A stretch of DNA of 64,000 nt, from NCBI GenBank assembly GCA_964637955.1, contig CAZWXQ010000004.1, positions 11,368-75,367 of the forward strand, in the 5' to 3' direction. Every line of letters begins with the position of its first letter. Within the stretch, counting starts at the first letter, position 1. The stretch is from an uncultured Gammaproteobacteria bacterium (GTDB lineage Bacteria > Patescibacteriota > Microgenomatia > Levybacterales > UBA12049). The notes under the pieces were generated by a model. It had not been told where the DNA came from. It saw only the letters and a list, made by a program, of their open reading frames with translations, and did no database searches. Positions 11,744 through 51,272 of the stretch are shown here, one piece after another. The translations under genes were made by a program, and so were the position numbers.

Positions 11744-12031
11744 ATGGCTAAAAAAGAAAAATCAGTTGAAGAAAAACAAGAAGATAAGAAGTTTCATCTT
11801 GAGGTTATCAAACAAACTATTGCCCTTTCTACTGCAGGGTTTGCTTTGGCTGCAGCACTAGCTTGGAATTCACTTATTCAGGAATTTATAAATACTTATT
11901 TTAAGCGCTATATCCCAGGAGATGGAAAAATACTTTCAATGCTTATTTATGCGCTCCTTGTAACAATTCTTGCAGTTTCAGTAACTCTTTACCTATCAAA
12001 GCTTGCAAATAGAATAGAAAAATCTAAATAA
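11744..12031 (+). CDS. Small membrane protein, hypothetical
   Basis: 95-aa ORF with two hydrophobic helices. Lys-rich N-terminus. Confidence 0.5.
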   Translation: MAKKEKSVEEKQEDKKFHLEVIKQTIALSTAGFALAAALAWNSLIQEFINTYFKRYIPGDGKILSMLIYALLVTILAVSVTLYLSKLANRIEKSK

Positions 12032-12884
12032 ATTCCTTCATTACTTTTGGAATTTCTTCTATCAGATCGCTCGCATTAAAATATATTCCCACAGCTTCTT
12101 CTAAGCTTTCTCCTGCCTTTTTATTTATAAAAGAAGCACAAGCTGCAGAAATAAAAGCATCATTCTTTGCATAAAAAGCAGCAGTAAGTCCTGCTAAAAC
12201 ATCACCGGTTCCGCCTTTTGTAAGTCCTGCATTCCCACCCGTAATAATCATTGATTGATCAGAATTTGCCACAACATCAATTGGTCCTTTAAGGAGTATC
12301 GTAATTCCATATTTCTTAGCCATTTCAGAAACCTTATTTTGAATTTCTGAATTTAGCTCATTTGGATTTGATTGGAAATTGGAAATTGGAAATTGGAAAT
12401 TAAAGAGTTTGGAAAACTCTTTCACATTTGGAGTAATTATTGAAGTTCTTGGCAGAATTTCGGGACTAATTACCTGAAGACTTCCCCCATCTACTACCCA
12501 TTTTTTATCTGGATATCGTGATAACAAGTCTTCAGTTAATGATTTCGTGTCATCATCTCCTTTTTCCTCTCCATCAGGACGAGGAAGTCCTGGACCTATC
12601 AAAACAGAATCCGCATCTCCAATATAATCCTCTACTCTTCCCCTAGGAACTATAATCCCATTTATAAATTTCTCTTTAAGATTTTTTAAGATCTCATTGT
12701 TCATAGGAGTTGAAGAAAAATAAACCATATCGACAATCTTTGAAGTTATTTCAAAAGCCCAAAAAGCCGGAGAGTGAAATAAATCAGATCCGCCAATTAT
12801 CAGAACCTTTCCATTTTCACCTTTTCGAGAATCCGAAGCGGGAACATAAAGCTGTTTTAATAAATTCGCATCAAATTCTTCCAT
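12024..12884 (-). CDS. nnr: ADP-dependent NAD(P)H-hydrate dehydratase (YjeF C-terminal carbohydrate-kinase-like domain)
   Basis: GGNAGLTKGGTGDVLAGL matches the YjeF_C signature (GGxGDvLxG). Confidence 0.8.
   Translation of the reverse strand: MEEFDANLLKQLYVPASDSRKGENGKVLIIGGSDLFHSPAFWAFEITSKIVDMVYFSSTPMNNEILKNLKEKFINGIIVPRGRVEDYIGDADSVLIGPGLPRPDGEEKGDDDTKSLTEDLLSRYPDKKWVVDGGSLQVISPEILPRTSIITPNVKEFSKLFNFQFPISNFQSNPNELNSEIQNKVSEMAKKYGITILLKGPIDVVANSDQSMIITGGNAGLTKGGTGDVLAGLTAAFYAKNDAFISAACASFINKKAGESLEEAVGIYFNASDLIEEIPKVMKEFI
12364..12401. repeat. Heptanucleotide microsatellite (TGGAAAT x4) inside the nnr coding sequence
   Basis: tggaaattggaaattggaaattggaaatt. Encodes SNFQFPISNFQSNP in frame in the minus-strand gene. 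Confidence 0.8.
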
Positions 12885-12920
12885 ATTTTGTCATGCTGAA
12901 TTTATTTCAGCATCTCTAAA

Positions 12921-13628
12921 TCATAAAGTCTTCAAAAACCATTCAATTATTTTATCCTGAAGCTGTTTTTTTACTACTGGATTACCACTAATATGATGGC
13001 TAGAATCTTTTAATATAAATTCTTCTTTTAAAGAGGCACTATTTGCTACCTCTAAATATTTTTCAGCCATGCCCGGAACTATTACCTCATCATTTTCAGC
13101 TTTAATCATCAAGAGTTTTCCTTTAAATTCTTTTATTCTCTCGTAGGATAAGCTACCTTCAAAACCTTCAGTTTTAAGGATTTCGCTTATAAAAGTCCCT
13201 TGCTTAAGACTCATCGATGAAGGTGGAAAAGAAGCTGGAACACTTAAAATCATTGATTTGAAATTATAATCTAATGAAATCAAAGCTGCTAAAAATCCTC
13301 CATAACTTGATCCACAAATCCCAAGCCTATTCCTGTCTATATTATTTTGTGATAAAAACAACTTAAGTGATTCTCTTGCATCGTCTTCCCCTTCTCCAAT
13401 TGTAAGTTCTCCAAATTTTCCGTCGCTAATTCCACATCCTCTAAAATTAAATGCAAAAGCTAGAATCCCATTTTCTGAAAGTAGTTTAGCTAATTCAAAA
13501 TATGTTTCACCTTTTGATCCACTTCCATGGAAGAAAATAACAGAAGGAAATGGGCCATCTCCTTCCGGAGTAAATAAACTTCCTCTAAGAACGTCCTCCC
13601 CAACTTTAAATTCAACTTTTTTTTCCAT
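12921..13628 (-). CDS. Alpha/beta hydrolase (dienelactone hydrolase-like)
   Basis: ICGSSYGG nucleophile elbow (GxSxG). HGSGS near the N-terminus. 235 aa. Confidence 0.75.
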   Translation of the reverse strand: MEKKVEFKVGEDVLRGSLFTPEGDGPFPSVIFFHGSGSKGETYFELAKLLSENGILAFAFNFRGCGISDGKFGELTIGEGEDDARESLKLFLSQNNIDRNRLGICGSSYGGFLAALISLDYNFKSMILSVPASFPPSSMSLKQGTFISEILKTEGFEGSLSYERIKEFKGKLLMIKAENDEVIVPGMAEKYLEVANSASLKEEFILKDSSHHISGNPVVKKQLQDKIIEWFLKTL

Positions 13629-17641: not shown

Positions 17642-17730
17642 CTGTCATTCCGAATTGCGTCTCTTCTGAGAAGCAAGTACCCTTGAGGTATTTCGGAATC
17701 TAGATCCTGAAATGGATTCAGGATGACACC
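17642..17730. repeat. Palindromic REP-like repeat: long form plus an inverted short form. One of three loci of this family in the window.
   Basis: tgtcattccgaa...(about 40 nt)...ttcggaatc, followed by an inverted short copy gatcctgaaatggattcaggatgaca. Related copies at 25528-25590 and 50838-50866. Confidence 0.6.
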
Positions 17731-17738
17731 CTAAACAT

Positions 17739-18905
17739 TCAGCGAACTTTTGACTCTACAAACTTTTTAATTTCTTTTTCAAATCTTTCGCGGCTAAACT
17801 TCTGTGCATATTTAGCGATTTCCTCAGAATCAAATTTAGTTTTTTCAAACTTTTTAATTGCTGCATTCAAATTTTCTACATTAAATTCATCGAAAAATAT
17901 ACCTGTTTTACCTTCAATTACAGTCTCTTTTGGTCCTCCGGAATTGTGAGCAATTACTGGCGTTCCTGCCATCATAGCCTCCACTGGAACTATTCCGAAA
18001 TCCTCATCTTTTGAGGCAAATATAAATCCTTTTGCGCCAGCCATAAGCCTATTTTTCTCTTCATCACTTACTTCTCCTAAAAATTCTATATTTTGTTTTT
18101 GGGATTTGGAATTTATGATTTTATTTTTTATTTCCTCTTCAAATCCAGCAAATCCTTTTCCAAAAACTTTTAAAGGCAATCCATTTTTTATAAATGCATC
18201 GATGATAAGATCAGTGTGTTTTGCGCGAGCAATACGTCCTCCTGCTAGATAGTAGGTTTTAGGTTGTAGGGCGTAGTTTTTATCACCACCTACTCCCAAC
18301 CCCCTACTCCCCATATCAACTGGCGGATAAATCACCACTGCATTTTTGCGATAAAACTTTTCAATTCTTCTTTTCGTTTCCTGCGAATTTGCGATGAAAA
18401 AATCTACATTCTGAGAAGACTTAAAATCTATCATTCTTAAGAAATGAATCGTCCACATACCAATAAACTTTGAAACGGCATTTTTTTGCCAATCCCGAGC
18501 GGTTTCATATCCATAAAGATATCGAGGAGGCGTATGCATATAACAAATATGAACAGCTTTTTGCATTTTTCCTTTTTTCTCAGACTTAGTTTGAATAGTG
18601 TTTGGACTATATGCGCCTGTGGCAGAAACTATTACGACATCATATGTAGATAAATCTAAAGATTTAAATAATTCTGGAGCTACGATTCTTATTGGACTAA
18701 TAAGCTTAGAATTAAATGGAATTACATCTGCCCATGAAGTTTTTATTTTCCAGCTTTTAAACCGCTCGCGATGAGGACCTAGATATTTTGGAAGATAAAC
18801 TGAGGTGTATACCGGAGCATCAGGAAACACCTCGTGTAGAGCCTCTAGAACTCTCTCAGCGCCCCCGTATTCTTTAATGTAGTCGTGTACTATTGCTACC
18901 TTCAT
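17739..18905 (-). CDS. Glycosyltransferase family 4 (GT-B, retaining)
   Basis: C-terminal EDFGIVPVEAMMAGTPVIA matches the GT4 nucleotide-sugar-binding motif. 388 aa. Confidence 0.85.
   Translation of the reverse strand: MKVAIVHDYIKEYGGAERVLEALHEVFPDAPVYTSVYLPKYLGPHRERFKSWKIKTSWADVIPFNSKLISPIRIVAPELFKSLDLSTYDVVIVSATGAYSPNTIQTKSEKKGKMQKAVHICYMHTPPRYLYGYETARDWQKNAVSKFIGMWTIHFLRMIDFKSSQNVDFFIANSQETKRRIEKFYRKNAVVIYPPVDMGSRGLGVGGDKNYALQPKTYYLAGGRIARAKHTDLIIDAFIKNGLPLKVFGKGFAGFEEEIKNKIINSKSQKQNIEFLGEVSDEEKNRLMAGAKGFIFASKDEDFGIVPVEAMMAGTPVIAHNSGGPKETVIEGKTGIFFDEFNVENLNAAIKKFEKTKFDSEEIAKYAQKFSRERFEKEIKKFVESKVR
18105..18125. repeat. GGGATTT-type heptamer repeat inside the glycosyltransferase coding sequence
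   Basis: gtttttgggatttggaattt. Encodes NSKSQKQN in the minus-strand gene. Confidence 0.5.
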
Positions 18906-25527: not shown

Positions 25528-25590
25528 AATCCTAAGCTGTCATCCTGAACTCGCGCCGCTTCGGAGAAGCCAGTACTCTTGAGGTGATTC
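25528..25590. repeat. REP-like palindromic repeat, variant copy whose stem carries compensatory changes
   Basis: tgtcatcctgaactcgcgccgcttcggagaagccagtactcttgaggtgattcaggatc. Stem atcctgaa/ttcaggat against attccgaa/ttcggaat in the 17642 copy. Confidence 0.6.
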
Positions 25591-25611
25591 AGGATCTTAA
25601 CAAACATAATC

Positions 25612-25911
25612 TTATACATTTTGAAATTTTCCATTCTGAAGTTCTTTTGATCCCCTACCCACTGTCGCAACTCCAACTCCAAGCTTTCCTGCAATTTCAT
25701 GCTGAGAAATTCCTTTTTTTAAGAGCTTGATAATTTCTAGTCTGTGGGGAAGTTCGATTAATTCTTTTGGAGTTAAAATCCCTTCCAAAAATACTTTCAT
25801 TTCAGATTTACTTTCAATTTTTAAAAGAAAATCTATAAATTCCTCAAGCTGCTTATTCTCCTTTTCTCTATTTAATCTCATCATACTAGTATACTGATAG
25901 TATAAACACAT
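25612..25911 (-). CDS. TrpR/YerC-YecD family helix-turn-helix regulator
   Basis: ELIELPHRLEIIKLLKKGISQHEIAGKLGVGVATVGRGSKEL resembles the TrpR-like HTH of the YerC family. About 95 aa. Confidence 0.65.
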   Translation of the reverse strand: MCLYYQYTSMMRLNREKENKQLEEFIDFLLKIESKSEMKVFLEGILTPKELIELPHRLEIIKLLKKGISQHEIAGKLGVGVATVGRGSKELQNGKFQNV

Positions 25912-34266: not shown

Positions 34267-34285
34267 GACTTCGCCTGAGCCATTG

Positions 34286-34359
34286 TACCAGGGGTGGGAG
34301 TCGAACCCACGACCTTAGGTTTATGAATCCTATGCTCTAACCAACTGAGCTACCCTGGC
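34286..34359 (-). tRNA. tRNA with anticodon CAT (Met or lysidine-Ile2). CCA is not encoded.
   Basis: Hand-folded cloverleaf: GCCAGGG / TA / GCTC-AGTTGGTTA-GAGC / TAGGA-TTCATAA-ACCTA / AGGTC / GTGGG-TTCGACT-CCCAC / CCCTGGT-A. G1-U72 wobble. Confidence 0.8.
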
Positions 34360-35056
34360 GTGCTAGTCCTTCGATTAATCCTATTATTTTATAATAAATA
34401 CGTGCCGGTTTACTAACTTTAACAGACAAAGTTCCATAATGTTCATTGAAATTATCGTAAATTTTCTTACTTTTTACCTTTTTAAAACTAGTTTTCGTGA
34501 ATTGATCTAATGGAATTCCTGTCATCTCAGACCAATAATATTTAACTAACTGTTCTCTTTTACGATGGGTTTCATTAATTCCAACATAACACCTCATTTG
34601 AGAAATTGGAATTCCAAAGCACGTTTGCAACCAAATCAGGAAGAATTTTATCATTTTAGGATCAGAGTTGCAAAGTTCTATTTTGCGAGTTTTCTTGCTT
34701 CCTTCTCCCCAATACAAAGCTAAACCCGCAATTAATAACTCTCTCTCGGTCATTCCTGAAAGATATTTTAAACCATCTATTCTTGACTCTTGAATTAATT
34801 TTAATCGTCGATTTTTTTGCTCCAATGCGTTTCTTAAACGACCTAATTCTGCACCTTTAATTTTTGATTTTCTCAATTCTTCTAATTGCTCTACGGAAAG
34901 CACAATATCTCTAACCCAAATACTTACTGTGCTTTTTGAAATCTGAAGTTCAGAAGCAATTTTTTTAACGCTTAATCCATTTTTTCTTAATTTTCTAGCC
35001 TCTAATTTAAGTAATGATTTCGCCATCGAACCTACAATATATAATAGTATTAACAC
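34337..35056 (-). CDS. HTH plus LAGLIDADG-like (single-motif) homing-endonuclease-family protein. Its 3' end overlaps the tRNA 5' end by about 22 nt.
   Basis: N-terminal HTH (KLRKNGLSVKKIASELQISKSTVSIWVRDI). LLIAGLALYWGEGSKK resembles the LAGLIDADG motif with its catalytic acidic residue. Confidence 0.45.
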   Translation of the reverse strand: MLILLYIVGSMAKSLLKLEARKLRKNGLSVKKIASELQISKSTVSIWVRDIVLSVEQLEELRKSKIKGAELGRLRNALEQKNRRLKLIQESRIDGLKYLSGMTERELLIAGLALYWGEGSKKTRKIELCNSDPKMIKFFLIWLQTCFGIPISQMRCYVGINETHRKREQLVKYYWSEMTGIPLDQFTKTSFKKVKSKKIYDNFNEHYGTLSVKVSKPARIYYKIIGLIEGLARQGSSVG

Positions 35057-35079: not shown

Positions 35080-35108
35080 TCAATTAACAGTTGGGGTGCT
35101 ATAATACC
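35080..35108 (+). promoter_or_regulatory. Sigma70-like promoter: TTGTCA (-35), 17-nt spacer, TATAAT (-10)
   Basis: ttgtcaattaacagttggggtgctataat. It would drive the candidate ncRNA. Confidence 0.5.
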
Positions 35109-35114
35109 TGAACG

Positions 35115-35440
35115 CGCGGGGTAGTGTACAGTGCACGTGAGGCTTAATTTAATGGGCCGTTTTGATAGTAATACCAAAAATGAACTCAGCTATTTCGGTG
35201 AACTCCTAAATTTTATTAAGGACAATACCGAGGGAAGACTCGCTTAGGCGAGAACCCGTAGAGACTACACGCTGGGCTCCTAAGCAATCAAGGATTTATA
35301 CAAAGCTTGCCAAAGGATGAAGATATAGTCCGACACTCTGAGTAATCGGAGATAACAGATAGCATAATCTCACAGGCTAGGCGCAACTCCTAGCCCCGCA
35401 ACAAATTTAATGGAGGCATCAAGCCTCCATTTTCTTTAAT
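35115..35440 (+). ncRNA. Candidate structured non-coding RNA of about 320 nt (class unknown), or a long regulated leader
   Basis: A 450-bp gene-free region carries a consensus promoter, several stable hairpins (ctcgc-ttag-gcgag, ggctagg-cgcaact-cctagcc) and an intrinsic terminator. It may contain a 31-codon small ORF (MGRFDSNTKNELSYFGELLNFIKDNTEGRLA). Confidence 0.35.
35412..35440 (+). terminator. Intrinsic terminator: ggaggc-atcaa-gcctcc followed by a T-run
   Basis: ggaggcatcaagcctccattttcttt on the plus strand. Confidence 0.6.
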
Positions 35441-38844: not shown

Positions 38845-39438
38845 ATGCCTACAGAATCTCCAAAGCATCCAATTGTAATCATTCCTGAGGCTACTTCTAA
38901 ACCTTCAGGCAATCTAAGTATGTTCACTCCTATGGGCGAGGGGCTTTATGGCTTTGAAGCTACAGAGCATGATCCGATTGTCGAAGCTCCAATAACAAGC
39001 GCTGAAGGCGGAACATTATATTTTGGTAACGAAATAAAGAAGGAAGAACTTCTGGCATTAACAAACATAATGGGAATCAGAACTAATCCTAATACTCAAA
39101 AATACATTATTTATGAAATGCAGTCAGATAATTCAATTTCAGATCGTTATCTTCTACAATGGAGATTCGTATCTGATTTTGCGAGTAAATATTTATTCAG
39201 AGATGATGCACCAGATGCGATTCCTGTCCAACCCTTCTCTATTCCAGAAGCAATGTGGAAATTTATAGAAGGTGAAAAAATAAAGTATGGCACGATGTTT
39301 GGAAATCCAGCAATAGCAGGAAAGCTTGGAGGAAATGGCTATTCATTGCAAGAAGAATTAGCTTTCGGAGTAACAGTTGAAAACCCTTATTACGGAGTTT
39401 ATAGAATTTGGAGCAGACCTTGGCTTGTTGGAAAATAG
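38845..39438 (+). CDS. Hypothetical protein
   Basis: 197-aa ORF. Confidence 0.5.
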   Translation: MPTESPKHPIVIIPEATSKPSGNLSMFTPMGEGLYGFEATEHDPIVEAPITSAEGGTLYFGNEIKKEELLALTNIMGIRTNPNTQKYIIYEMQSDNSISDRYLLQWRFVSDFASKYLFRDDAPDAIPVQPFSIPEAMWKFIEGEKIKYGTMFGNPAIAGKLGGNGYSLQEELAFGVTVENPYYGVYRIWSRPWLVGK

Positions 39439-39439
39439 T

Positions 39440-39511
39440 GGGCTAGCTTGGATTTGAACCAAGGACATCTACTTTATAAGAGCCCCGATTTAATCGGGGC
39501 CGCTGAGCTAC
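39440..39511 (-). pseudogene. Degenerate tRNA-like chimera. It has a T-arm plus acceptor 3' half and an anticodon-like hairpin, but no 5' acceptor strand and no D-stem 3' half.
   Basis: Minus strand GTAGCTCAGCGG-CCCCGATTAAATCGGGG-CTCTTATAAAGTAGATGTC-CTTGGTTCAAATCCAAG-CTAGCCCA. It shares two blocks with the neighbouring tRNA (GTAGCTCAGCGG and CTCTTATAAAGTAGATGTC). Confidence 0.4.
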
Positions 39512-39586
39512 TGGTGGGTTAGGATGGAGTCGGACCATCGACATCTACTTTATAAGAGTAGCGCTCTACCGCTGAGCTACTAACCC
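39512..39586 (-). tRNA. tRNA with anticodon TAT (Ile-UAU). CCA is encoded.
   Basis: GGGTTAG-TA-GCTC-AGCGGTA-GAGC-G-CTACT-CTTATAA-AGTAG-ATGTC-GATGG-TCCGACT-CCATC-CTAACCC-A-CCA. Acceptor, anticodon and T stems are fully paired. The T-loop is unusual (UCCGACU). Confidence 0.7.
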
Positions 39587-39831
39587 AAATTCTTACTAAT
39601 TAACCATTCTATATATTTTTTACTTTTATAACTTTTAAGCTTTCTTTCTCTTTTTAAAACTTCTGATTTTGTTTCAAATTTCTCTGTGTAAACTAGCTTA
39701 TCTGTTTTTAAAATCCTAGTAGTTCTAGTCTTACCAATTAGATGCTGATTTAATCTTTGATCTAAATCACCAGTTGATCCAATATAATATCTCCCGGTCT
39801 CTTCATTCTTCAGAATGTATAACCAAAACAT
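39580..39831 (-). CDS. GIY-YIG nuclease family protein (small, YhbQ/UPF0213-like)
   Basis: MFWLYILKNEETGRYYIGSTGDLDQRLNQH is the GIY-YIG catalytic motif. Overlaps the tRNA 5' end by 7 nt. Confidence 0.75.
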   Translation of the reverse strand: MFWLYILKNEETGRYYIGSTGDLDQRLNQHLIGKTRTTRILKTDKLVYTEKFETKSEVLKRERKLKSYKSKKYIEWLISKNLG

Positions 39832-40468: not shown

Positions 40469-42433
40469 ATGATTGAAAAAGGTCTTCAACCTATATTTGA
40501 CGCCAATGAAGGCAATGGTTCTTTTGGCAAACCTGGAGGCATATCTGACGACGATAGTTATGGTGCTTATGAAAGAGACAAATCCATACCTATTCCTGTT
40601 GTTGTCGATGAAAGACCAGCGCTTGATAGAATTATTGCAGAACTTGATCAGGAAAGAAGAGGTCGATTTCGTCCGACCTATCCAGTATCTCCAATAGAAG
40701 AACCTAAGATTTTTCCCCCAGACACTAAAGAACCAAAGTACTTAGAAGGGTTTAATTCAGGTATAACAGGAGCAAGATTAAAAGTTGCAGGTGTTGATAT
40801 TGCAAGAACAACGATATTTAATCCCCTATCGAGAAACGAGTATGCAGGTGGGACAGAACTTACCCAGGAAGGTATAGAAAAAATTAAACAGTTTTTAAAA
40901 GACAAGGGCTACAGTAATGATGCGCTTGAATATTTAAGTGAGACAGGGGTTTTTGGAAGTATTTTTGCAAACTTAGTACTTAGAACAGAGTCTAATCAAA
41001 TAATAGAAGCAATAAACAATACTGACTTTAAATCTTCAAAAAGAAATTCCTCCGGTTACTATGACTCTATTGAGCCATATTTAGGCTTCTCATATCAAAA
41101 TGAAGCTATAGATGCAAGCATACCGTCTAGTGATAGCAAAAATGACGATCAAAGAAGATTATCAAGAAAAGGTGCGACCAGACTTTTCAGAATAGGCACA
41201 CCTAGAGTTTTAGAAAACTATAAAGTAGCTGATACGCCTATTGTTATTATCGGAGGAGGACCAGCAGGACTTCTTACTGCAAATGCTTTAGTAGATTTAG
41301 GATTCGCTTCTCATAATATTACAGTTCTAGATAAATCGGGTGATTTTGGTGGAATTTGGAAGCAGAAAAATGTTGCGGGAGGATCCAAGAATAATCCTTT
41401 TGACATTAATTTTAGTGGAATCAGGATTGATGCCGCACCAGGTCCCGGATCTTCAATAAGCATCTTTCTTAGGGATATCGCAAAACGTATGGAAAGAAAT
41501 AATGAAGAGGTAGGAGTAGTAAAAGGAAAGGTTACCAGAATAACACCTGGTGATTTAAATCATACAGTGCATTACATAGATGAATCCGGCACTGAAACAA
41601 CTCTAGAAGCTCCGATTGTAATTAACGCTATCGGAAATGGAAAGCCATTACCTCCAAATAGAGAAGGCTATATGACAACTCCAATTAAAGATGGTCAAGC
41701 AGGAATCAGATGGCAGCAAATAATTACTCCTGAAAAAGCTGAAGAATTTAGCGGCAAAACAGTAGTTTTTGTAGGACTTGGAAATAGTACTGCAGAAATG
41801 ATGCAGCAAATTGAAGATTATAATAAATTAGGATACGGCATAAACTACCGCGTTTTAACACACTACCCCTATGAAGCCATTCAAAATCCAGACTCTTTAG
41901 TTAGAATGCCTGATGGAAGAGAATTTAAAGTATTCAGAGACATAAAAACTCCAAATCTAACTAAATTTGAAGGAGATTTACCTGAAATGAGAACTGTTTA
42001 TGATGCTGCTGTAAGAAAAGGAAGAATAATTTCTGATGTAGTCAATTGGGATGTTAAAGACAAATCAATAGTAGCTAGAACTAAAGACGGCACAGAAATA
42101 ACTATTCCGTTTGCACAGCTTTATACTTTAATTGGCTACAGACAAGATCCTGAAGCTCTTAGAGCCATGGGGATGACAGTGGTTGATGAATATACAGGCG
42201 AGATTGCTTATGATTATGACGGTGAGATTCAAAGAAAGCCAGGAGAAGTTGGAAGGAAAAGAGTGCATCCTGGCTACTTCGGTATCGGAGCAGTTCTTAA
42301 ATCACCTTCAAATCCAAATGCAGAAGTAATACCTGGAATTCAACATAGACTTTATGATTTACTTTTTGGAGTAATTATGAGATCAGCTGAATCTGCTGCA
42401 AGAAAAGAAAAACCTCAGAAAAAAAGACGCTAA
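40469..42433 (+). CDS. FAD/NAD(P)-binding oxidoreductase (flavin-monooxygenase-like, two Rossmann motifs) with an uncharacterised N-terminal extension of about 230 aa
   Basis: IVIIGGGPAGLLTANAL (GxGxxG) and VVFVGLGNSTAEMMQQI (second dinucleotide-binding motif). Confidence 0.55.
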   Translation: MIEKGLQPIFDANEGNGSFGKPGGISDDDSYGAYERDKSIPIPVVVDERPALDRIIAELDQERRGRFRPTYPVSPIEEPKIFPPDTKEPKYLEGFNSGITGARLKVAGVDIARTTIFNPLSRNEYAGGTELTQEGIEKIKQFLKDKGYSNDALEYLSETGVFGSIFANLVLRTESNQIIEAINNTDFKSSKRNSSGYYDSIEPYLGFSYQNEAIDASIPSSDSKNDDQRRLSRKGATRLFRIGTPRVLENYKVADTPIVIIGGGPAGLLTANALVDLGFASHNITVLDKSGDFGGIWKQKNVAGGSKNNPFDINFSGIRIDAAPGPGSSISIFLRDIAKRMERNNEEVGVVKGKVTRITPGDLNHTVHYIDESGTETTLEAPIVINAIGNGKPLPPNREGYMTTPIKDGQAGIRWQQIITPEKAEEFSGKTVVFVGLGNSTAEMMQQIEDYNKLGYGINYRVLTHYPYEAIQNPDSLVRMPDGREFKVFRDIKTPNLTKFEGDLPEMRTVYDAAVRKGRIISDVVNWDVKDKSIVARTKDGTEITIPFAQLYTLIGYRQDPEALRAMGMTVVDEYTGEIAYDYDGEIQRKPGEVGRKRVHPGYFGIGAVLKSPSNPNAEVIPGIQHRLYDLLFGVIMRSAESAARKEKPQKKRR

Positions 42434-48435: not shown

Positions 48436-50835
48436 CTAACATTCACTATGTCCACATGAATAGCATTTTCCACAACCTTCTTCGTATACGAAACTGCTAG
48501 TTCCACATTCTGGGCAAATATCCATCGTGTGTGTTTTTGGCTTTGTGTCCATGGTTATTCCCTCCTGAAGTGGAAGCTGTGTAAGAACTGTAATTTCTTC
48601 TTTTTCTTCTATTTGCTCTGAGACAATTGGCGCATCAGCTGGAGCTGAAGCAACTGGTGTTACTACCCCTGGAGCGAGCTTATCCTCCACTACTCCATTT
48701 ACCTTAAATGCATACTGCTTAGCTAGAACCTTGGCAATAGCATCTGGCAGAGATCTAACTCGGTTTTCTCCAAAACCTACACTTCTTGCTCCTCCTATTC
48801 CGGAGAGCTGACTTATAACTTGCCTTATCCTCTCGCGCGGCGGCAGGTTGCCTGCGAGACGAAGGTTTAGAGACACCATGCGACCAAGTGCATCAGCCAT
48901 AGCAGATAAATCTGATCCTGGCTTTCCAATCGTGATAAAGACTTCAAAAGGTTCTCCATTTTGATCGTGATTTAATGTGATATATGTGTCTCCAACTGGA
49001 GTTTGAGTCTTATATGTAACTCCTTCTACCATCATAGGCCTTGGTGCACGAACAATCTCCTTAGGAAGAACTGCAGCTTTAGCTTCCTCTTTTGGTTTTT
49101 CATCAACATGAGAAAGCACACCTTGTCGCGAACCGTCTCTGAAATAAGTAACACCCTTTAATCCGTTATCATAAGCCATCATGTAAAGATTTTTTACATC
49201 TTCTACACTATGTCCATTTGGCGCGTTCACTGTTTTAGAAATAGAAGAATCGATATATTCCTGCGCAATTGCTTGAACCATAACATGCTCTTCTGGAGTC
49301 AGGTCATTTGATGAAGCAAAATAATCTGGCTTTGCTTCCCCTGGATGTTTTTTCTGCCACTCTTCATAAAGCGGGTGGAACATTCTATGCTCCCCTAGCC
49401 TGTCTCGTCTGATAAATTCAAACTCATAAACTGGCTCAACTCCAGATGAAACTCCAGAAATCAAACTTGTAGTTCCGGTTGGAGCAATAGTAAGAAGTAC
49501 GGCATTTCTGATTCCATTTTTGGCAATCCTTGCTTGCAACCATTTCGGAAGATTCTGAATGTGATATCCCTGAAGATATTTTTCTTTATCAAACTTAGGA
49601 AATGCTCCTTTTTCCTTTGCAATATCACTTGAAGCCTCATAAGCATTATTCCTGAGAGTTTCAAAAATTTTCTTAATGGTTTCCTCAGACTCTGGTGCGC
49701 CGTATCTAAGCTTCATCTTAATAAGTGCATCTGCAAGCCCTAAAATGCCTAAACCAGTTCTTCTAATGTCTTTTGCTACCTGCTCATTTTCTTTGAAGAA
49801 ATAATACGTGTCATCTATTACATTATCCAAAAATCTCATTGCGACTTTTACATCCTTACCAAATGAAACGAAGTCAAATTTTTCGTTTTTTACATAGGCT
49901 GCTAGATTCATGGCACCTAGATTGCAAACTGCCCATGCTCCAAGAGGCTGTTCTCCACATGGATTTGTAGCAATAAGTTTTTCAAAATACCAAGTGTTGC
50001 TTCTTTTATTGGATCTTTCGAGGAAGTGAAGGCCTGGCTCAGCACTTCGCCATGCTGCTGTACAAATAAGATCCCATAATTCTTTTGCTTTTACCGTTTT
50101 ATAAACTTTTGTTTTTCTTCCAGCTTTTTTCCAACCAATTAAATCTCCATCCCAATCTTTATCATAATTTGGATCATCTAGATCTGGGTATTCTAGATTC
50201 CAATCAGCATCTGCTTTTACAGCTTCCATGAAAGCATCAGATACACAAACCGAGAGATTTGCGCCATTAATCTTAGTCAAATCTTCTTTTACGGTAATAA
50301 ATTCCTCAACATCAGGATGCCAATCATGAAGCATAAGCATAGTTGCTCCACGGCGGCTTCCACCCTGCTGTACAACATCATGAGTTGCATAAGAGAACAA
50401 GCCAGCCCATGTAACTGGACCTGAAGAAAATCCATTAACTTTCTTTACCCTTGCACCGCGAGGCCTTAGAGAAGATAAATTCAAACCAACTCCACCTGAG
50501 CGAGACTGAATCTCAACTAATTGCTTTAAGGAATCAATTATTCCTTCACGACTATCTTTTGGAGATGGAATAACAAAACAATTAAAATAAGTTACTTGGA
50601 AATCTGTTCCTGCACCTGAGAGAATTCTACCGCCTGGAACGAACTTGAAGTCGCTCATTACATCATAGAATTTTTTCTCCCAAACTCCACGAGCTGTTTT
50701 TCTTTCCTGCTTAGCAATACCCTTAGCTACTCTTCTCCACATTTCTTCTGGAGTTTTTTCCAATGCATTACCTTCTTTATCTTTTAAAGAATATCTGTCT
50801 AAAAATACTTTTTCTCTTACGCCATCAAGTTTCAT
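48436..50835 (-). CDS. nrdJ: Adenosylcobalamin-dependent (class II) ribonucleotide reductase
   Basis: N-terminal VFLDRYSLKDKEGNALEKTPEEMWRRVAKGIA is typical of NrdJ. NPCGEQPL active-site cysteine region. C-terminal Cys4 zinc ribbon. 799 aa. Confidence 0.8.
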   Translation of the reverse strand: MKLDGVREKVFLDRYSLKDKEGNALEKTPEEMWRRVAKGIAKQERKTARGVWEKKFYDVMSDFKFVPGGRILSGAGTDFQVTYFNCFVIPSPKDSREGIIDSLKQLVEIQSRSGGVGLNLSSLRPRGARVKKVNGFSSGPVTWAGLFSYATHDVVQQGGSRRGATMLMLHDWHPDVEEFITVKEDLTKINGANLSVCVSDAFMEAVKADADWNLEYPDLDDPNYDKDWDGDLIGWKKAGRKTKVYKTVKAKELWDLICTAAWRSAEPGLHFLERSNKRSNTWYFEKLIATNPCGEQPLGAWAVCNLGAMNLAAYVKNEKFDFVSFGKDVKVAMRFLDNVIDDTYYFFKENEQVAKDIRRTGLGILGLADALIKMKLRYGAPESEETIKKIFETLRNNAYEASSDIAKEKGAFPKFDKEKYLQGYHIQNLPKWLQARIAKNGIRNAVLLTIAPTGTTSLISGVSSGVEPVYEFEFIRRDRLGEHRMFHPLYEEWQKKHPGEAKPDYFASSNDLTPEEHVMVQAIAQEYIDSSISKTVNAPNGHSVEDVKNLYMMAYDNGLKGVTYFRDGSRQGVLSHVDEKPKEEAKAAVLPKEIVRAPRPMMVEGVTYKTQTPVGDTYITLNHDQNGEPFEVFITIGKPGSDLSAMADALGRMVSLNLRLAGNLPPRERIRQVISQLSGIGGARSVGFGENRVRSLPDAIAKVLAKQYAFKVNGVVEDKLAPGVVTPVASAPADAPIVSEQIEEKEEITVLTQLPLQEGITMDTKPKTHTMDICPECGTSSFVYEEGCGKCYSCGHSEC

Positions 50836-50837
50836 AA

Positions 50838-50866
50838 TTTTATTTCAATGTCATTCCGAACTTGTT
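50838..50866. repeat. REP-like palindromic repeat, short form
   Basis: tgtcattccgaacttgtttcggaatc: an 8-bp stem attccgaa/ttcggaat with a 5-nt loop. Confidence 0.55.
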
Positions 50867-50873
50867 TCGGAAT

Positions 50874-51272
50874 CTAATTTACCAATTTCCTTTCCGTTTG
50901 ATTTTCTGCTGATACTACTTCAAGCATAGCTGCTCCCAATTCTTTTTTATTATGATTTAAGCTAAATTTATAATCCCCTTCTGACTCGATAGGAAGTCCT
51001 GCAAGCTCTACTATTAAATTATTTTTGCCATTTTCCCCAGTTGTACTATTTAGATTAAAAGAAGCAATCTCTTTCGTTCCTTTTTTAAAACTTAAATCAA
51101 GTTTATATTCTGTAAATGTTTCTCCACTTATAGTTGCTACAAAAAATGCTCTGACAAGTGTCGTTGGAAAAGTGACAACATTTAATTTGTCAAAAATTCC
51201 ATCAATACTTAGCTTCCCTTCTCGGGATACTGATGCATAGTCTGATAATGTTATTAAATTTACTTTTAACAT
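50874..51272 (-). CDS. Hypothetical protein between nrdR and nrdJ
   Basis: 132-aa ORF. Confidence 0.5.
   Translation of the reverse strand: MLKVNLITLSDYASVSREGKLSIDGIFDKLNVVTFPTTLVRAFFVATISGETFTEYKLDLSFKKGTKEIASFNLNSTTGENGKNNLIVELAGLPIESEGDYKFSLNHNKKELGAAMLEVVSAENQTERKLVN

What the first reader, a model, noticed from the sequence alone, without database searches (positions are those of the whole stretch)
17642..17730. Palindromic REP-like repeat family with compensatory stem mutations (three loci)
tgtcattccgaa...ttcggaatc hairpins occur at 17642-17730 (long form plus an inverted short form), 25528-25590 (long form) and 50838-50866 (short form). All lie in short intergenic gaps after minus-strand genes. 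The 25528 copy has atcctgaa/ttcaggat in place of attccgaa/ttcggaat. Both stem halves changed together, which implies selection on the secondary structure (RNA stability element, terminator, or protein-binding DNA hairpin).
Basis: seen in the sequence. Interest (0 to 1): 0.55.

Follow-up and report, generated by a model that had tools for sequence, protein, structure and literature searches.

The report
CGTC-tagged REP hairpin repeats (Ssn-type)
The hairpins are real copies of an already described, very widespread family of small palindromic DNA repeats (the "CGTC-tagged REPs", recently linked to small GIY-YIG single-strand DNA nucleases), here found in a small-genome candidate-phyla bacterium, so the finding is correct but essentially ordinary.

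Summary
One copy was missed: the window has five units at four loci. The extra unit is at 12889-12916.

Every unit reads TGTC-AT.C.GAA-loop-TTC.G.AT-C and has a perfect 8-bp stem. There are three stem versions, and each change on one arm is matched on the other. Two units carry a related 37-38-nt structured loop found nowhere else.

The same 25-mer is common in public genomes from many bacterial phyla and in uncultivated viral contigs. There the two variable stem pairs covary strongly.

The units match the CGTC-tagged REP superfamily, type CGTC-2 (Di Nocera et al. 2013). This is the superfamily that includes Neisseria dRS3/NTS. Chenal et al. (2025) showed that NTS hairpins are bound and cut, only as single-stranded DNA, by the small GIY-YIG nuclease SsnA.

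I found small GIY-YIG genes flanked by units of this AT-rich type in five of five genomes tested.

The units are not intrinsic terminators. No cognate nuclease gene was seen next to them in the window. At the one site compared (upstream of the RNR gene), the two closest relatives lack the unit.

Verdict: a new member of a known kind, of low to moderate interest.

The parts
12889..12916 (+). Unit A, short form: TGTC tag, stem ATGCTGAA/TTCAGCAT, loop TTTAT, tail CTC. It fills most of the 36-nt gap between minus-strand genes 12921..13628 (stop codon 6 nt away) and 12024..12884 (start codon 5 nt away).
Evidence: Covariance-model hit at 45.4 bits; sequence; ORFs.
17643..17702 (+). Unit B, long form: TGTC tag, stem ATTCCGAA/TTCGGAAT, tail CTA. 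The 37-nt loop folds into two small hairpins, giving a three-way junction. It forms a tags-outside (HH) heterodimer with unit C; the two cores are 2 nt apart around the palindrome ATCTAGAT.
   Evidence: Sequence; alignment; RNA fold -19.8 kcal/mol, z -3.7; DNA-parameter fold -14.4 kcal/mol.
17701..17728 (-). Unit C, short form on the minus strand: TGTC tag, stem ATCCTGAA/TTCAGGAT, loop TCCAT, tail CTA. It lies 11 nt from the stop codon of the GT4 glycosyltransferase gene (17739..18905, minus strand).
   Evidence: covariance-model hit at 38.7 bits.
25538..25598 (+). Unit D, long form: TGTC tag, stem ATCCTGAA/TTCAGGAT, tail CTT. Its 38-nt loop is homologous to that of unit B. It lies 15 nt after the stop codon of the TrpR-like gene 25612..25911 (minus strand) and 23 nt before a separate terminator-like site (25515-25501, minus strand).
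50849..50876 (+). Unit E, short form: TGTC tag, stem ATTCCGAA/TTCGGAAT, loop CTTGT, tail CTA. The tail supplies the TAG stop codon of ORF 50874..51272 (minus strand). The unit lies 14 nt upstream of the ATG of the class II ribonucleotide reductase gene (48436..50835, minus strand).
   Evidence: covariance-model hit at 46.6 bits. The unit is absent at the orthologous site in the closest relatives.

Best explanation
The five hairpins are copies of a dispersed, selfish or domesticated DNA repeat. It belongs to the CGTC-tagged REP superfamily, type CGTC-2: a (C/T)GTC tag, an 8-bp stem beginning AT, a 5-nt loop, and a C straight after the palindrome.

In this superfamily the functional form is a hairpin in single-stranded DNA. 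A small single-domain GIY-YIG nuclease of the Ssn family recognises it in one orientation. The C after the palindrome is critical for binding, and the three bases before the palindrome (the GTC of the tag) mainly affect cutting.

Copies spread into intergenic DNA and persist mainly at the 3' ends of genes, where they do little harm. Only copies that keep the tag, the C and a paired stem stay recognisable. That explains the perfect stems and the compensated stem variants.

The two long forms are a variant found only in this window. In it the loop has been expanded by extra small hairpins.

Shown here: the anatomy, the family membership, the very wide distribution, the covariation, the linkage of the same unit type to GIY-YIG genes in other genomes, and gain or loss of a unit between related genomes.

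Inferred: that an Ssn-type nuclease acts on these copies in this particular genome, and that it is what spreads them.
For: Anatomy:
- All five units share TGTC + AT.C.GAA + loop + TTC.G.AT + C.

Fit to the published CGTC families (PMC3733652):
- The paper describes a CGTC tag often changed to TGTC, stems of 8 or 9 bp starting with AT, loops of 4 or 5 nt and a short unpaired tail.
- It reports mostly tags-outside (HH) dimers, with heterodimers predominating in CGTC-2.
- It places the repeats between unidirectional or convergent genes, close to the upstream gene's 3' end.
- Its supplement lists a Sulfurovum CGTC-2 unit translated as RHSELVSGS. That peptide can be encoded by CGTCATTCTGAACTTGTTTCAGGATC.

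Distribution:
- The genome hits span candidate-phyla (CPR) lineages, Bacteroidota, sphingomonads, Treponema, Ignavibacteria, Nitrospirota, Melainabacteria and others.

Covariation:
- About 92% of 324 units have a fully Watson-Crick stem. Six stem versions are common (formal count).

Link to the nuclease:
- Chenal et al. 2025 (PMC11893778) showed that NTS (CGTCATTCCCGCGMAVGCGGGAATCYRG) is cut only as ssDNA by SsnA. They also found that 71% of ssnA homologues have such motifs nearby.
- In my motif-selected loci, six small GIY-YIG genes lie 10-356 nt from units.
- In the reverse test, homologous GIY-YIG genes in five of five further genomes have units of this family on one or both sides, within about 110 nt of the gene ends. 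The genomes are Lutibacter profundi, Roseivirga pacifica, Pontixanthobacter gangjinensis, a Sulfurimonas MAG and Christiangramia sp..
- Their catalytic residues fall at Y7/Y17/E64, against Y6/Y17/E64 mutated in SsnA.

Gain and loss:
- The closest relative (RNR 83% identical) has NrdR and RNR 4 nt apart, with no unit.
- Other relatives carry dimers straight after the RNR stop codon instead.

DNA rather than RNA:
- There is no excess of wobble pairs and no orientation bias in genomes.
Against: - No Ssn-type gene flanked by these units is present in the 64-kb window.
- The one GIY-YIG ORF in the window (39580..39831) scores only 37 bits against the unit-associated clade. Its homologues sit next to tRNA genes with a different hairpin.
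- The published SRM search string does not literally match any of the five units.
- Membership of the unit-linked GIY-YIG genes in CDD family cd10448 could not be checked with the tools available.
- Nobody has shown that Ssn nucleases actually copy or move these repeats.
- In several multi-copy viral contigs all units point the same way, and in the window four of five are antisense to the genes. Some strand-linked process is therefore not excluded.
Confidence: 0.75

Rival explanations
1. The units act mainly as RNA. They would be intercistronic or 3'-end hairpins in the minus-strand mRNAs that protect the upstream cistron from 3' exonucleases, or that tune translation of neighbouring genes, as shown for some E. 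coli REPs.
For: - All units lie 0-15 nt after a stop codon. Four loci are inside apparent operons, so the units are probably transcribed.
- In genomes the units avoid divergent (promoter) gaps: 0 divergent against 12 convergent and 34 unidirectional.
- Units A, B and E lie only 5-14 nt from the next start codon.
- Di Nocera et al. favour an RNA role for the same positional reasons.
Against: - The tag and the trailing C are conserved and orientation-specific, yet the orientation relative to transcription is random in genomes, 19 against 15.
- There is no excess of G.U-compatible mismatches.
- The stem and loop sequence is conserved across phyla far beyond what a generic stabilising hairpin needs.
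- SsnA does not bind the RNA form of NTS.
- The unit is absent at the orthologous RNR site in the two closest relatives.
- An RNA effect may still exist as a by-product.
Confidence: 0.15
2. They are classical REP/REPIN elements mobilised by a RAYT (REP-associated Y1 HUH tyrosine transposase).
For: The layout is similar: a 4-nt tag plus a palindrome, inverted dimers and an intergenic location.
Against: - The tag is (C/T)GTC, not GTAG.
- Di Nocera et al. found no transposase linked to CGTC repeats.
- Among 150 ORFs next to units in diverse genomes there were 198 Pfam families. None occurred more than three times, and no transposase family was among the 25 most frequent families shown.
- The gene found next to the units is a GIY-YIG gene.
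Confidence: 0.04
3. They are intrinsic (Rho-independent) transcription terminators.
For: They are hairpins placed just after stop codons.
Against: - The stems are AT-rich and no T-run follows on either strand.
- None is called by the terminator scan.
- Three units sit 5-14 nt upstream of the next gene of the same operon.
- Unit D is followed by a separate canonical terminator-like site.
Confidence: 0.03
4. They are operator sites for a transcription factor that regulates the adjacent genes.
For: The sequence is palindromic and three units are close to start codons.
Against: - The neighbouring genes are functionally unrelated, both here and in 150 other loci.
- No units fall in divergent promoter gaps.
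- The same 25-mer occurs across many phyla.
- Relatives lack the unit at the one orthologous site compared, upstream of the RNR gene.
Confidence: 0.03

Closest known systems
CGTC-tagged REPs, family CGTC-2 (Di Nocera, De Gregorio & Rocco 2013, BMC Genomics 14:522)
   Same: - A tag of CGTC or TGTC, an 8-bp stem starting AT, a 5-nt loop and a short tail.
- Tags-outside heterodimers.
- Location between unidirectional genes, close to the upstream gene's 3' end.
- Complementary stem variants.
- A Sulfurovum CGTC-2 unit listed in their supplement can be back-translated to essentially the same 25-mer.
   Different: - The host is a candidate-phyla (Microgenomates-like) bacterium, a group not covered in 2013.
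- Two of the five copies carry a 37-38-nt structured loop not seen elsewhere.
- All five tags are TGTC rather than CGTC.
Neisseria NTS/dRS3 and the Ssn-related motifs (SRM), with their GIY-YIG ssDNA nuclease SsnA (Chenal et al. 2025, Nat Commun 16:2388)
   Same: - The format is the same: HGTC + AT + palindrome + C.
- Units of exactly the window's type flank small single-domain GIY-YIG genes in other genomes, in the arrangement the paper describes for NTS-ssnA-NTS.
   Different: - The stem is AT-rich (..C.GAA/TTC.G..), so the published SRM search string does not match it.
- No cognate ssn gene was seen next to the units in the window.
- No biochemistry exists for this subtype.
GTAG REPs / REPINs with RAYT transposases (E. 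coli, Pseudomonas)
   Same: Small tagged palindromes, inverted dimers, an intergenic location, and presumed recognition as a single-stranded DNA hairpin.
   Different: The tag differs, the associated enzyme family differs (HUH Y1 transposase against GIY-YIG), and GTAG REP sequences are largely species-specific rather than shared across phyla.
Rickettsia palindromic elements RPE-4/RPE-6 and Wolbachia CGTC-4 repeats
   Same: They belong to the same CGTC superfamily according to Di Nocera et al. Wolbachia Ssn cuts its own motif (Chenal et al.).
   Different: Their stems are 9 bp with other sequences, and the Rickettsia RPE copies often lie inside genes. The window's copies are all intergenic.

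Membership tests
CGTC-tagged REP (CGTC-2) | Terminal tetranucleotide CGTC (or TGTC/CCTC) at one end only | tested here: met
   All five window units have TGTC. In 324 units from other genomes the base before GTC is C in 38-47% and T in 43-47%.
CGTC-tagged REP (CGTC-2) | 8-bp stem whose first two pairs are A-T and T-A | tested here: met
   The stems are ATGCTGAA, ATTCCGAA (twice) and ATCCTGAA (twice), each with a perfect complement.
CGTC-tagged REP (CGTC-2) | 5-nt loop of a few recurrent types | tested here: inconclusive
   Three of five units have 5-nt loops (TTTAT, CTTGT, TCCAT). The family's main loop types are CTTGT, TTTAT, CTCGT and CTTGA. Two of five have 37-38-nt loops. Long-loop variants do exist in other lineages and in other families of the paper.
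CGTC-tagged REP (CGTC-2) | Short unpaired tail after the palindrome | tested here: met
   The tails are CTC, CTA, CTA, CTT and CTA. In the wider sample the first position after the palindrome (the fixed C) was set by the search pattern, and the next position is T in 68-81% of units.
CGTC-tagged REP (CGTC-2) | Dispersed multi-copy repeats between unidirectional or convergent genes, near the upstream gene's 3' end, with HH dimers that are often heterodimers | tested here: met
   - Five units at four loci in 64 kb, all between unidirectional genes and 0-15 nt from a stop codon.
- One tags-outside heterodimer, B + C.
- In the genome sample: 34 unidirectional, 12 convergent, 0 divergent.
Ssn-related motif (SRM) / NTS | Literal match to the published search string HGTCWYN(0-2)YYVSBRHN(0-5)WNVSBRGN(0-2)RNCYNB | tested here: not met
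   The regular expression finds nothing in the window and matches none of the five units. It does match the canonical NTS. The failure comes from the G/C-only (S) positions, which fall on the AT-rich GAA/TTC part of the stem.
Ssn-related motif (SRM) / NTS | HGTC + W + Y before the palindrome and a C immediately after it (positions important for SsnA cutting and binding) | tested here: met
   All five units read TGTCAT...ATC.
Ssn-related motif (SRM) / NTS | The same motif type flanks single-domain GIY-YIG (ssn) genes | tested here: met
   - Six GIY-YIG genes lie 10-356 nt from units in the motif-selected loci.
- Five of five protein-selected genomes have units flanking the gene.
- All proteins scanned are PF01541-only and 83-102 aa long.
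- Assignment to CDD family cd10448 itself was not testable.
Ssn-related motif (SRM) / NTS | A cognate ssn gene in the same genome | tested here: inconclusive
   The window has one GIY-YIG ORF (39580..39831). It belongs to a different clade (37 bits against the unit-linked clade) and is linked to tRNA genes and another hairpin. The rest of the genome was not available.
Ssn-related motif (SRM) / NTS | Strand-specific cleavage of the single-stranded DNA form only | not testable with these tools
   This needs purified protein and oligonucleotides.
RAYT-associated REP / REPIN | GTAG tag, and a RAYT (Y1 transposase) gene flanked by the repeats | tested here: not met
   The tag is TGTC. No transposase family was among the 25 most frequent Pfam families for 150 unit-adjacent ORFs. 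The literature reports no association.
Intrinsic terminator | G+C-rich stem followed by a T-run | tested here: not met
   No unit is called by the terminator scan, and no unit has a T-run after it.

The most novel reading that the evidence does not exclude
In this reduced candidate-phyla genome the CGTC-2 hairpins, together with a small GIY-YIG nuclease, would form an ssDNA-restriction system that controls which incoming single-stranded DNA is integrated. This would parallel NTS/SsnA in Neisseria. The nuclease could be an unseen Ssn gene or the 83-aa tRNA-linked GIY-YIG ORF at 39580..39831. Such a system would matter for organisms thought to depend on DNA uptake. The long-loop units would then be a lineage-specific specificity variant.
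Probability: 0.1. Interest if true: 0.6.

Novelty: new member of a known kind. Interest (0 to 1): 0.27.

Why it matters
For annotation, these units should be labelled as CGTC-type REP / Ssn-related hairpins. They should not be treated as terminators or as candidate new RNAs.

Three modest additions to what is published:
- The AT-rich CGTC-2 subtype reaches candidate-phyla bacteria and uncultivated viral contigs.
- The published SRM search string misses this subtype, although its units flank GIY-YIG genes just as NTS flanks ssnA.
- Lineage-specific long-loop variants exist.

Three units sit 5-14 nt from start codons and one supplies a stop codon. They may therefore affect expression of the neighbouring genes, but that is untested.

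Tried and rejected
- Rfam at gathering thresholds found nothing at the units. It reported only a group I intron and two tRNAs.
- A full-text search for the 10-mers returned only unrelated primer hits.
- Cultured phage genomes (INPHARED) essentially lack the motif. There was one weak hit, listed under two accessions.
- The interior of the long form (GAGAAGCNAGTACNCTTGAGGT) had 0 hits in viral contigs and 0 in metagenome contigs. blastn-short against all fetched loci found it only in the window.
- A scan for 25-50-nt loops in viral contigs gave mostly chance matches inside coding sequence.
- A hammerhead-like reading of the long form was rejected. CUGANGA is not conserved between the two copies (by eye).
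- My crude ORF calling on viral contigs was too noisy to give gene-orientation statistics. The genome loci were used instead.
- The covariance-model hit at 42144-42179 (E about 0.13) lies antisense inside a coding sequence, has only a 4-bp stem, and was rejected as chance.
- A protein-based scan of viral contigs for the GIY-YIG clade gave only two loci.
- The supplements of the Ssn paper are not held, so its motif lists could not be checked.
- The source organism could not be named. Exact-protein look-ups returned only short Logan contigs from SRR14271331, SRR14271332 and SRR14271336.
- ARAGORN with introns allowed did not resolve the tRNA-like exons around the group I intron.

Full report
**What is in the window**

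Reading the three reported places shows the hairpins as described, with small shifts in coordinates. An alignment gives one unit plan: TGTC, then AT.C.GAA, a loop, TTC.G.AT, then C and two or three more bases.

The 11-mer GTCATYCYGAA occurs four times against 0.10 expected from dinucleotide shuffles. The full short hairpin pattern occurs twice against 0.01 expected.

I built a covariance model from 100 units taken from other genomes and ran it over the window without filters. This unit has a third stem version, ATGCTGAA/TTCAGCAT.

The five units are:
- A, 12889-12916 (+)
- B, 17643-17702 (+), long
- C, 17701-17728 (-)
- D, 25538-25598 (+), long
- E, 50849-50876 (+)

All five stems are perfect. 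B and C form an inverted pair with the tags on the outside. Their cores are 2 nt apart around the palindrome ATCTAGAT.

**Gene context**

The window is about 37% G+C and its genes lie mostly on the minus strand.

Every unit sits in a gap between two minus-strand genes, 0-15 nt after the upstream stop codon:
- A lies between a hydrolase gene and a carbohydrate-kinase-like gene. It is 6 nt from the stop codon and 5 nt from the next ATG.
- B and C lie between a GT4 glycosyltransferase gene and a Nudix gene.
- D lies after a TrpR-like gene.
- E lies between a 132-aa ORF and the class II ribonucleotide reductase (RNR) gene. The CTA tail of E supplies that ORF's TAG stop codon.

None of the units is followed by a T-run, and none is called by the terminator scan. 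A separate terminator-like site lies 23 nt beyond unit D.

**The long forms**

B and D share a 37-38-nt loop insert. It is 24 of 27 identical in its core and predicted to add small hairpins. Their outer stems differ at two pairs, and both differences are compensated.

The insert was not found anywhere else:
- 0 hits in viral contigs.
- 0 hits in metagenome contigs.
- Nothing among the other fetched loci.

Other lineages carry their own long loops. Most split the normal loop after CTTG and add a self-complementary stretch. One viral contig has a whole second unit nested in the loop. Long loops are therefore a recurring theme, but this particular insert was found only here.

**How widespread the unit is**

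- A scan of one genome per species stopped at the same limit. Its hits came from Gracilibacteria, Saccharibacteria, Shapiro-, Nomura-, Falkow-, Kerfeld- and Peribacteria, sphingomonads, Pedobacter and other Bacteroidota, Ignavibacteria, Treponema, Nitrospirota, Melainabacteria, Bdellovibrionales, Rickettsiales, Sulfurovaceae and one Nanoarchaeota bin.
- Cultured phage genomes essentially lack the motif.

On 324 distinct units the two stem positions that the search pattern left free are complementary in about 92% of units. Six stem versions are common. The loop is mostly CTTGT, TTTAT, CTCGT or CTTGA. The base before GTC is C or T.

A formal count on 100 distinct units gives 81 cells changed on both sides, against 25 in shuffles. 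None of 500 shuffles reaches the observed value. The other six pairs were fixed by the search pattern and so say nothing.

Mismatches are as often A.C as G.T. In genomes, single units between unidirectional genes point either way, 19 against 15. Twelve lie between convergent genes and none between divergent genes.

**What it is**

The anatomy matches the CGTC-tagged REP superfamily of Di Nocera and co-workers:
- A CGTC tag that is often TGTC.
- Stems of 8 or 9 bp beginning AT.
- Loops of 4 or 5 nt.
- A short tail.
- Mostly tags-outside dimers, with heterodimers predominating in CGTC-2.
- Location between unidirectional or convergent genes, near the upstream 3' end.
- No link to any transposase.

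Their supplement lists a Sulfurovum CGTC-2 unit translated as RHSELVSGS. That peptide can be encoded by CGTCATTCTGAACTTGTTTCAGGATC, which is the unit found here.

The same superfamily includes Neisseria dRS3. Chenal and co-workers extended dRS3 to the 28-nt NTS. Their main results were:
- A small single-domain GIY-YIG protein, SsnA, binds and cuts NTS only as single-stranded DNA. It does not act on the duplex, the RNA or the reverse strand.
- The C after the palindrome is critical for binding.
- The three bases before the palindrome mainly affect cutting.
- ssnA homologues across bacteria are usually flanked by such motifs.

**Test of that link for this subtype**

Among ORFs next to units in my motif-selected loci, the only recurrent family from unrelated genomes was a small GIY-YIG protein. 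Six such genes lie 10-356 nt from units. A Pfam scan of 150 other flanking ORFs showed only scattered housekeeping families among the most frequent ones, and no transposase.

I then went the other way. I searched for homologues of one of these proteins and fetched five from named genomes. In all five the gene has CGTCAT.C.GAA-N5-TTC.G.ATC units on one or both sides, within about 110 nt of the gene ends. In three of them the tags of the nearest units point outward.

These proteins are PF01541-only and 83-102 aa long. Their catalytic residues lie at positions matching those mutated in SsnA.

The published SRM search string does not match the window's units, because it demands G or C where this subtype has the GAA/TTC part of the stem.

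**Is the partner in the window?**

The window has one GIY-YIG ORF, at 39580..39831 (83 aa). It scores only 37 bits against the unit-linked clade.

Its homologues come from Microgenomates-type genomes. They all sit between a partial tRNA copy and an intact tRNA. The partial copy carries a different hairpin, CCCCGAYTNARTCGGGG. The ORF is therefore most likely part of a separate element.

Whether this genome has a cognate nuclease is unknown. I could not obtain the rest of the assembly.

**Gain and loss**

I fetched eighty loci encoding relatives of the RNR gene.
- In the closest relative (83% identical), NrdR and RNR are 4 nt apart, with no unit and no 132-aa ORF.
- The next closest has an 80-nt spacer without a unit.
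- Several others carry tags-outside dimers right after the RNR stop codon, and one carries units upstream.

Within this one syntenic region, the units come and go between related genomes. They are not a fixed regulatory feature of these genes.

**Conclusion**

It is a new member of a known kind: CGTC-2 type repeats of the Ssn/NTS class in a candidate-phyla genome, with a long-loop variant found only here.

The most likely working form is an ssDNA hairpin recognised by a small GIY-YIG nuclease. Action of such a nuclease in this genome is inferred, not shown. An RNA effect on neighbouring genes remains possible as a by-product.

Noticed in passing
window 39438-39831 (minus strand); also L360, L362, L365, L368: An 83-aa single-domain GIY-YIG ORF (39580..39831) ends inside the 5' end of tRNA-Ile(tat). 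Just downstream lies a second tRNA-like copy whose D-loop carries the hairpin CCCCGATTAAATCGGGG (39483-39499; none expected by chance). Homologues in Microgenomates-type genomes all sit between a partial tRNA 5' copy carrying the same hairpin and an intact tRNA. This looks like a tRNA-targeting GIY-YIG mobile element with its own hairpin, in a format (TCA-stem-loop-stem-TC) that recalls NTS.
   Followed up: partly
window 35135-35352 (+), flanks about 35107-35400: A group I intron (Rfam RF00028, 71.9 bits). By eye it is flanked by what look like tRNA halves (GCGGGGTAGTGTACAGTGCACGTGAGGCTTAA ... AATCTCACAGGCTAGGCGCAACTCCTAGCCCCGCA). ARAGORN with introns allowed does not call a tRNA there.
   Followed up: partly
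window 50874-51272 (minus strand), compared with L277 3547-4003: A 132-aa ORF of unknown function, together with unit E, lies between NrdR and the class II RNR gene. In the closest relative the NrdR stop codon and the RNR start codon are only 4 nt apart, so the ORF and the repeat are both absent there.
   Followed up: partly
L370 (IMG/VR contig 2881247448_000001) 2760-3520: A GIY-YIG gene flanked by a different tagged hairpin, GTCATTGCGAGGAAGAATGACGAAGCAATC. This suggests further nuclease-motif pairs of the same general design.
   Followed up: no
L043, L039, L078, L155 (viral contigs): Five to eight units per contig, nearly all in the same orientation and antisense to the large genes. Genomes show no such bias. 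A replication- or packaging-strand effect in these elements is possible.
   Followed up: no
L002 position 1 (Logan contig from SRR14271332): This contig starts exactly at the CTAG junction between units B and C. That fits an assembly break at the repeat, or strain variation there.
   Followed up: no
window 34337-35056 (minus strand): A 239-aa ORF whose 3' end overlaps tRNA-Met (34285-34359) and which lies next to the group I intron. It was not characterised.
   Followed up: no
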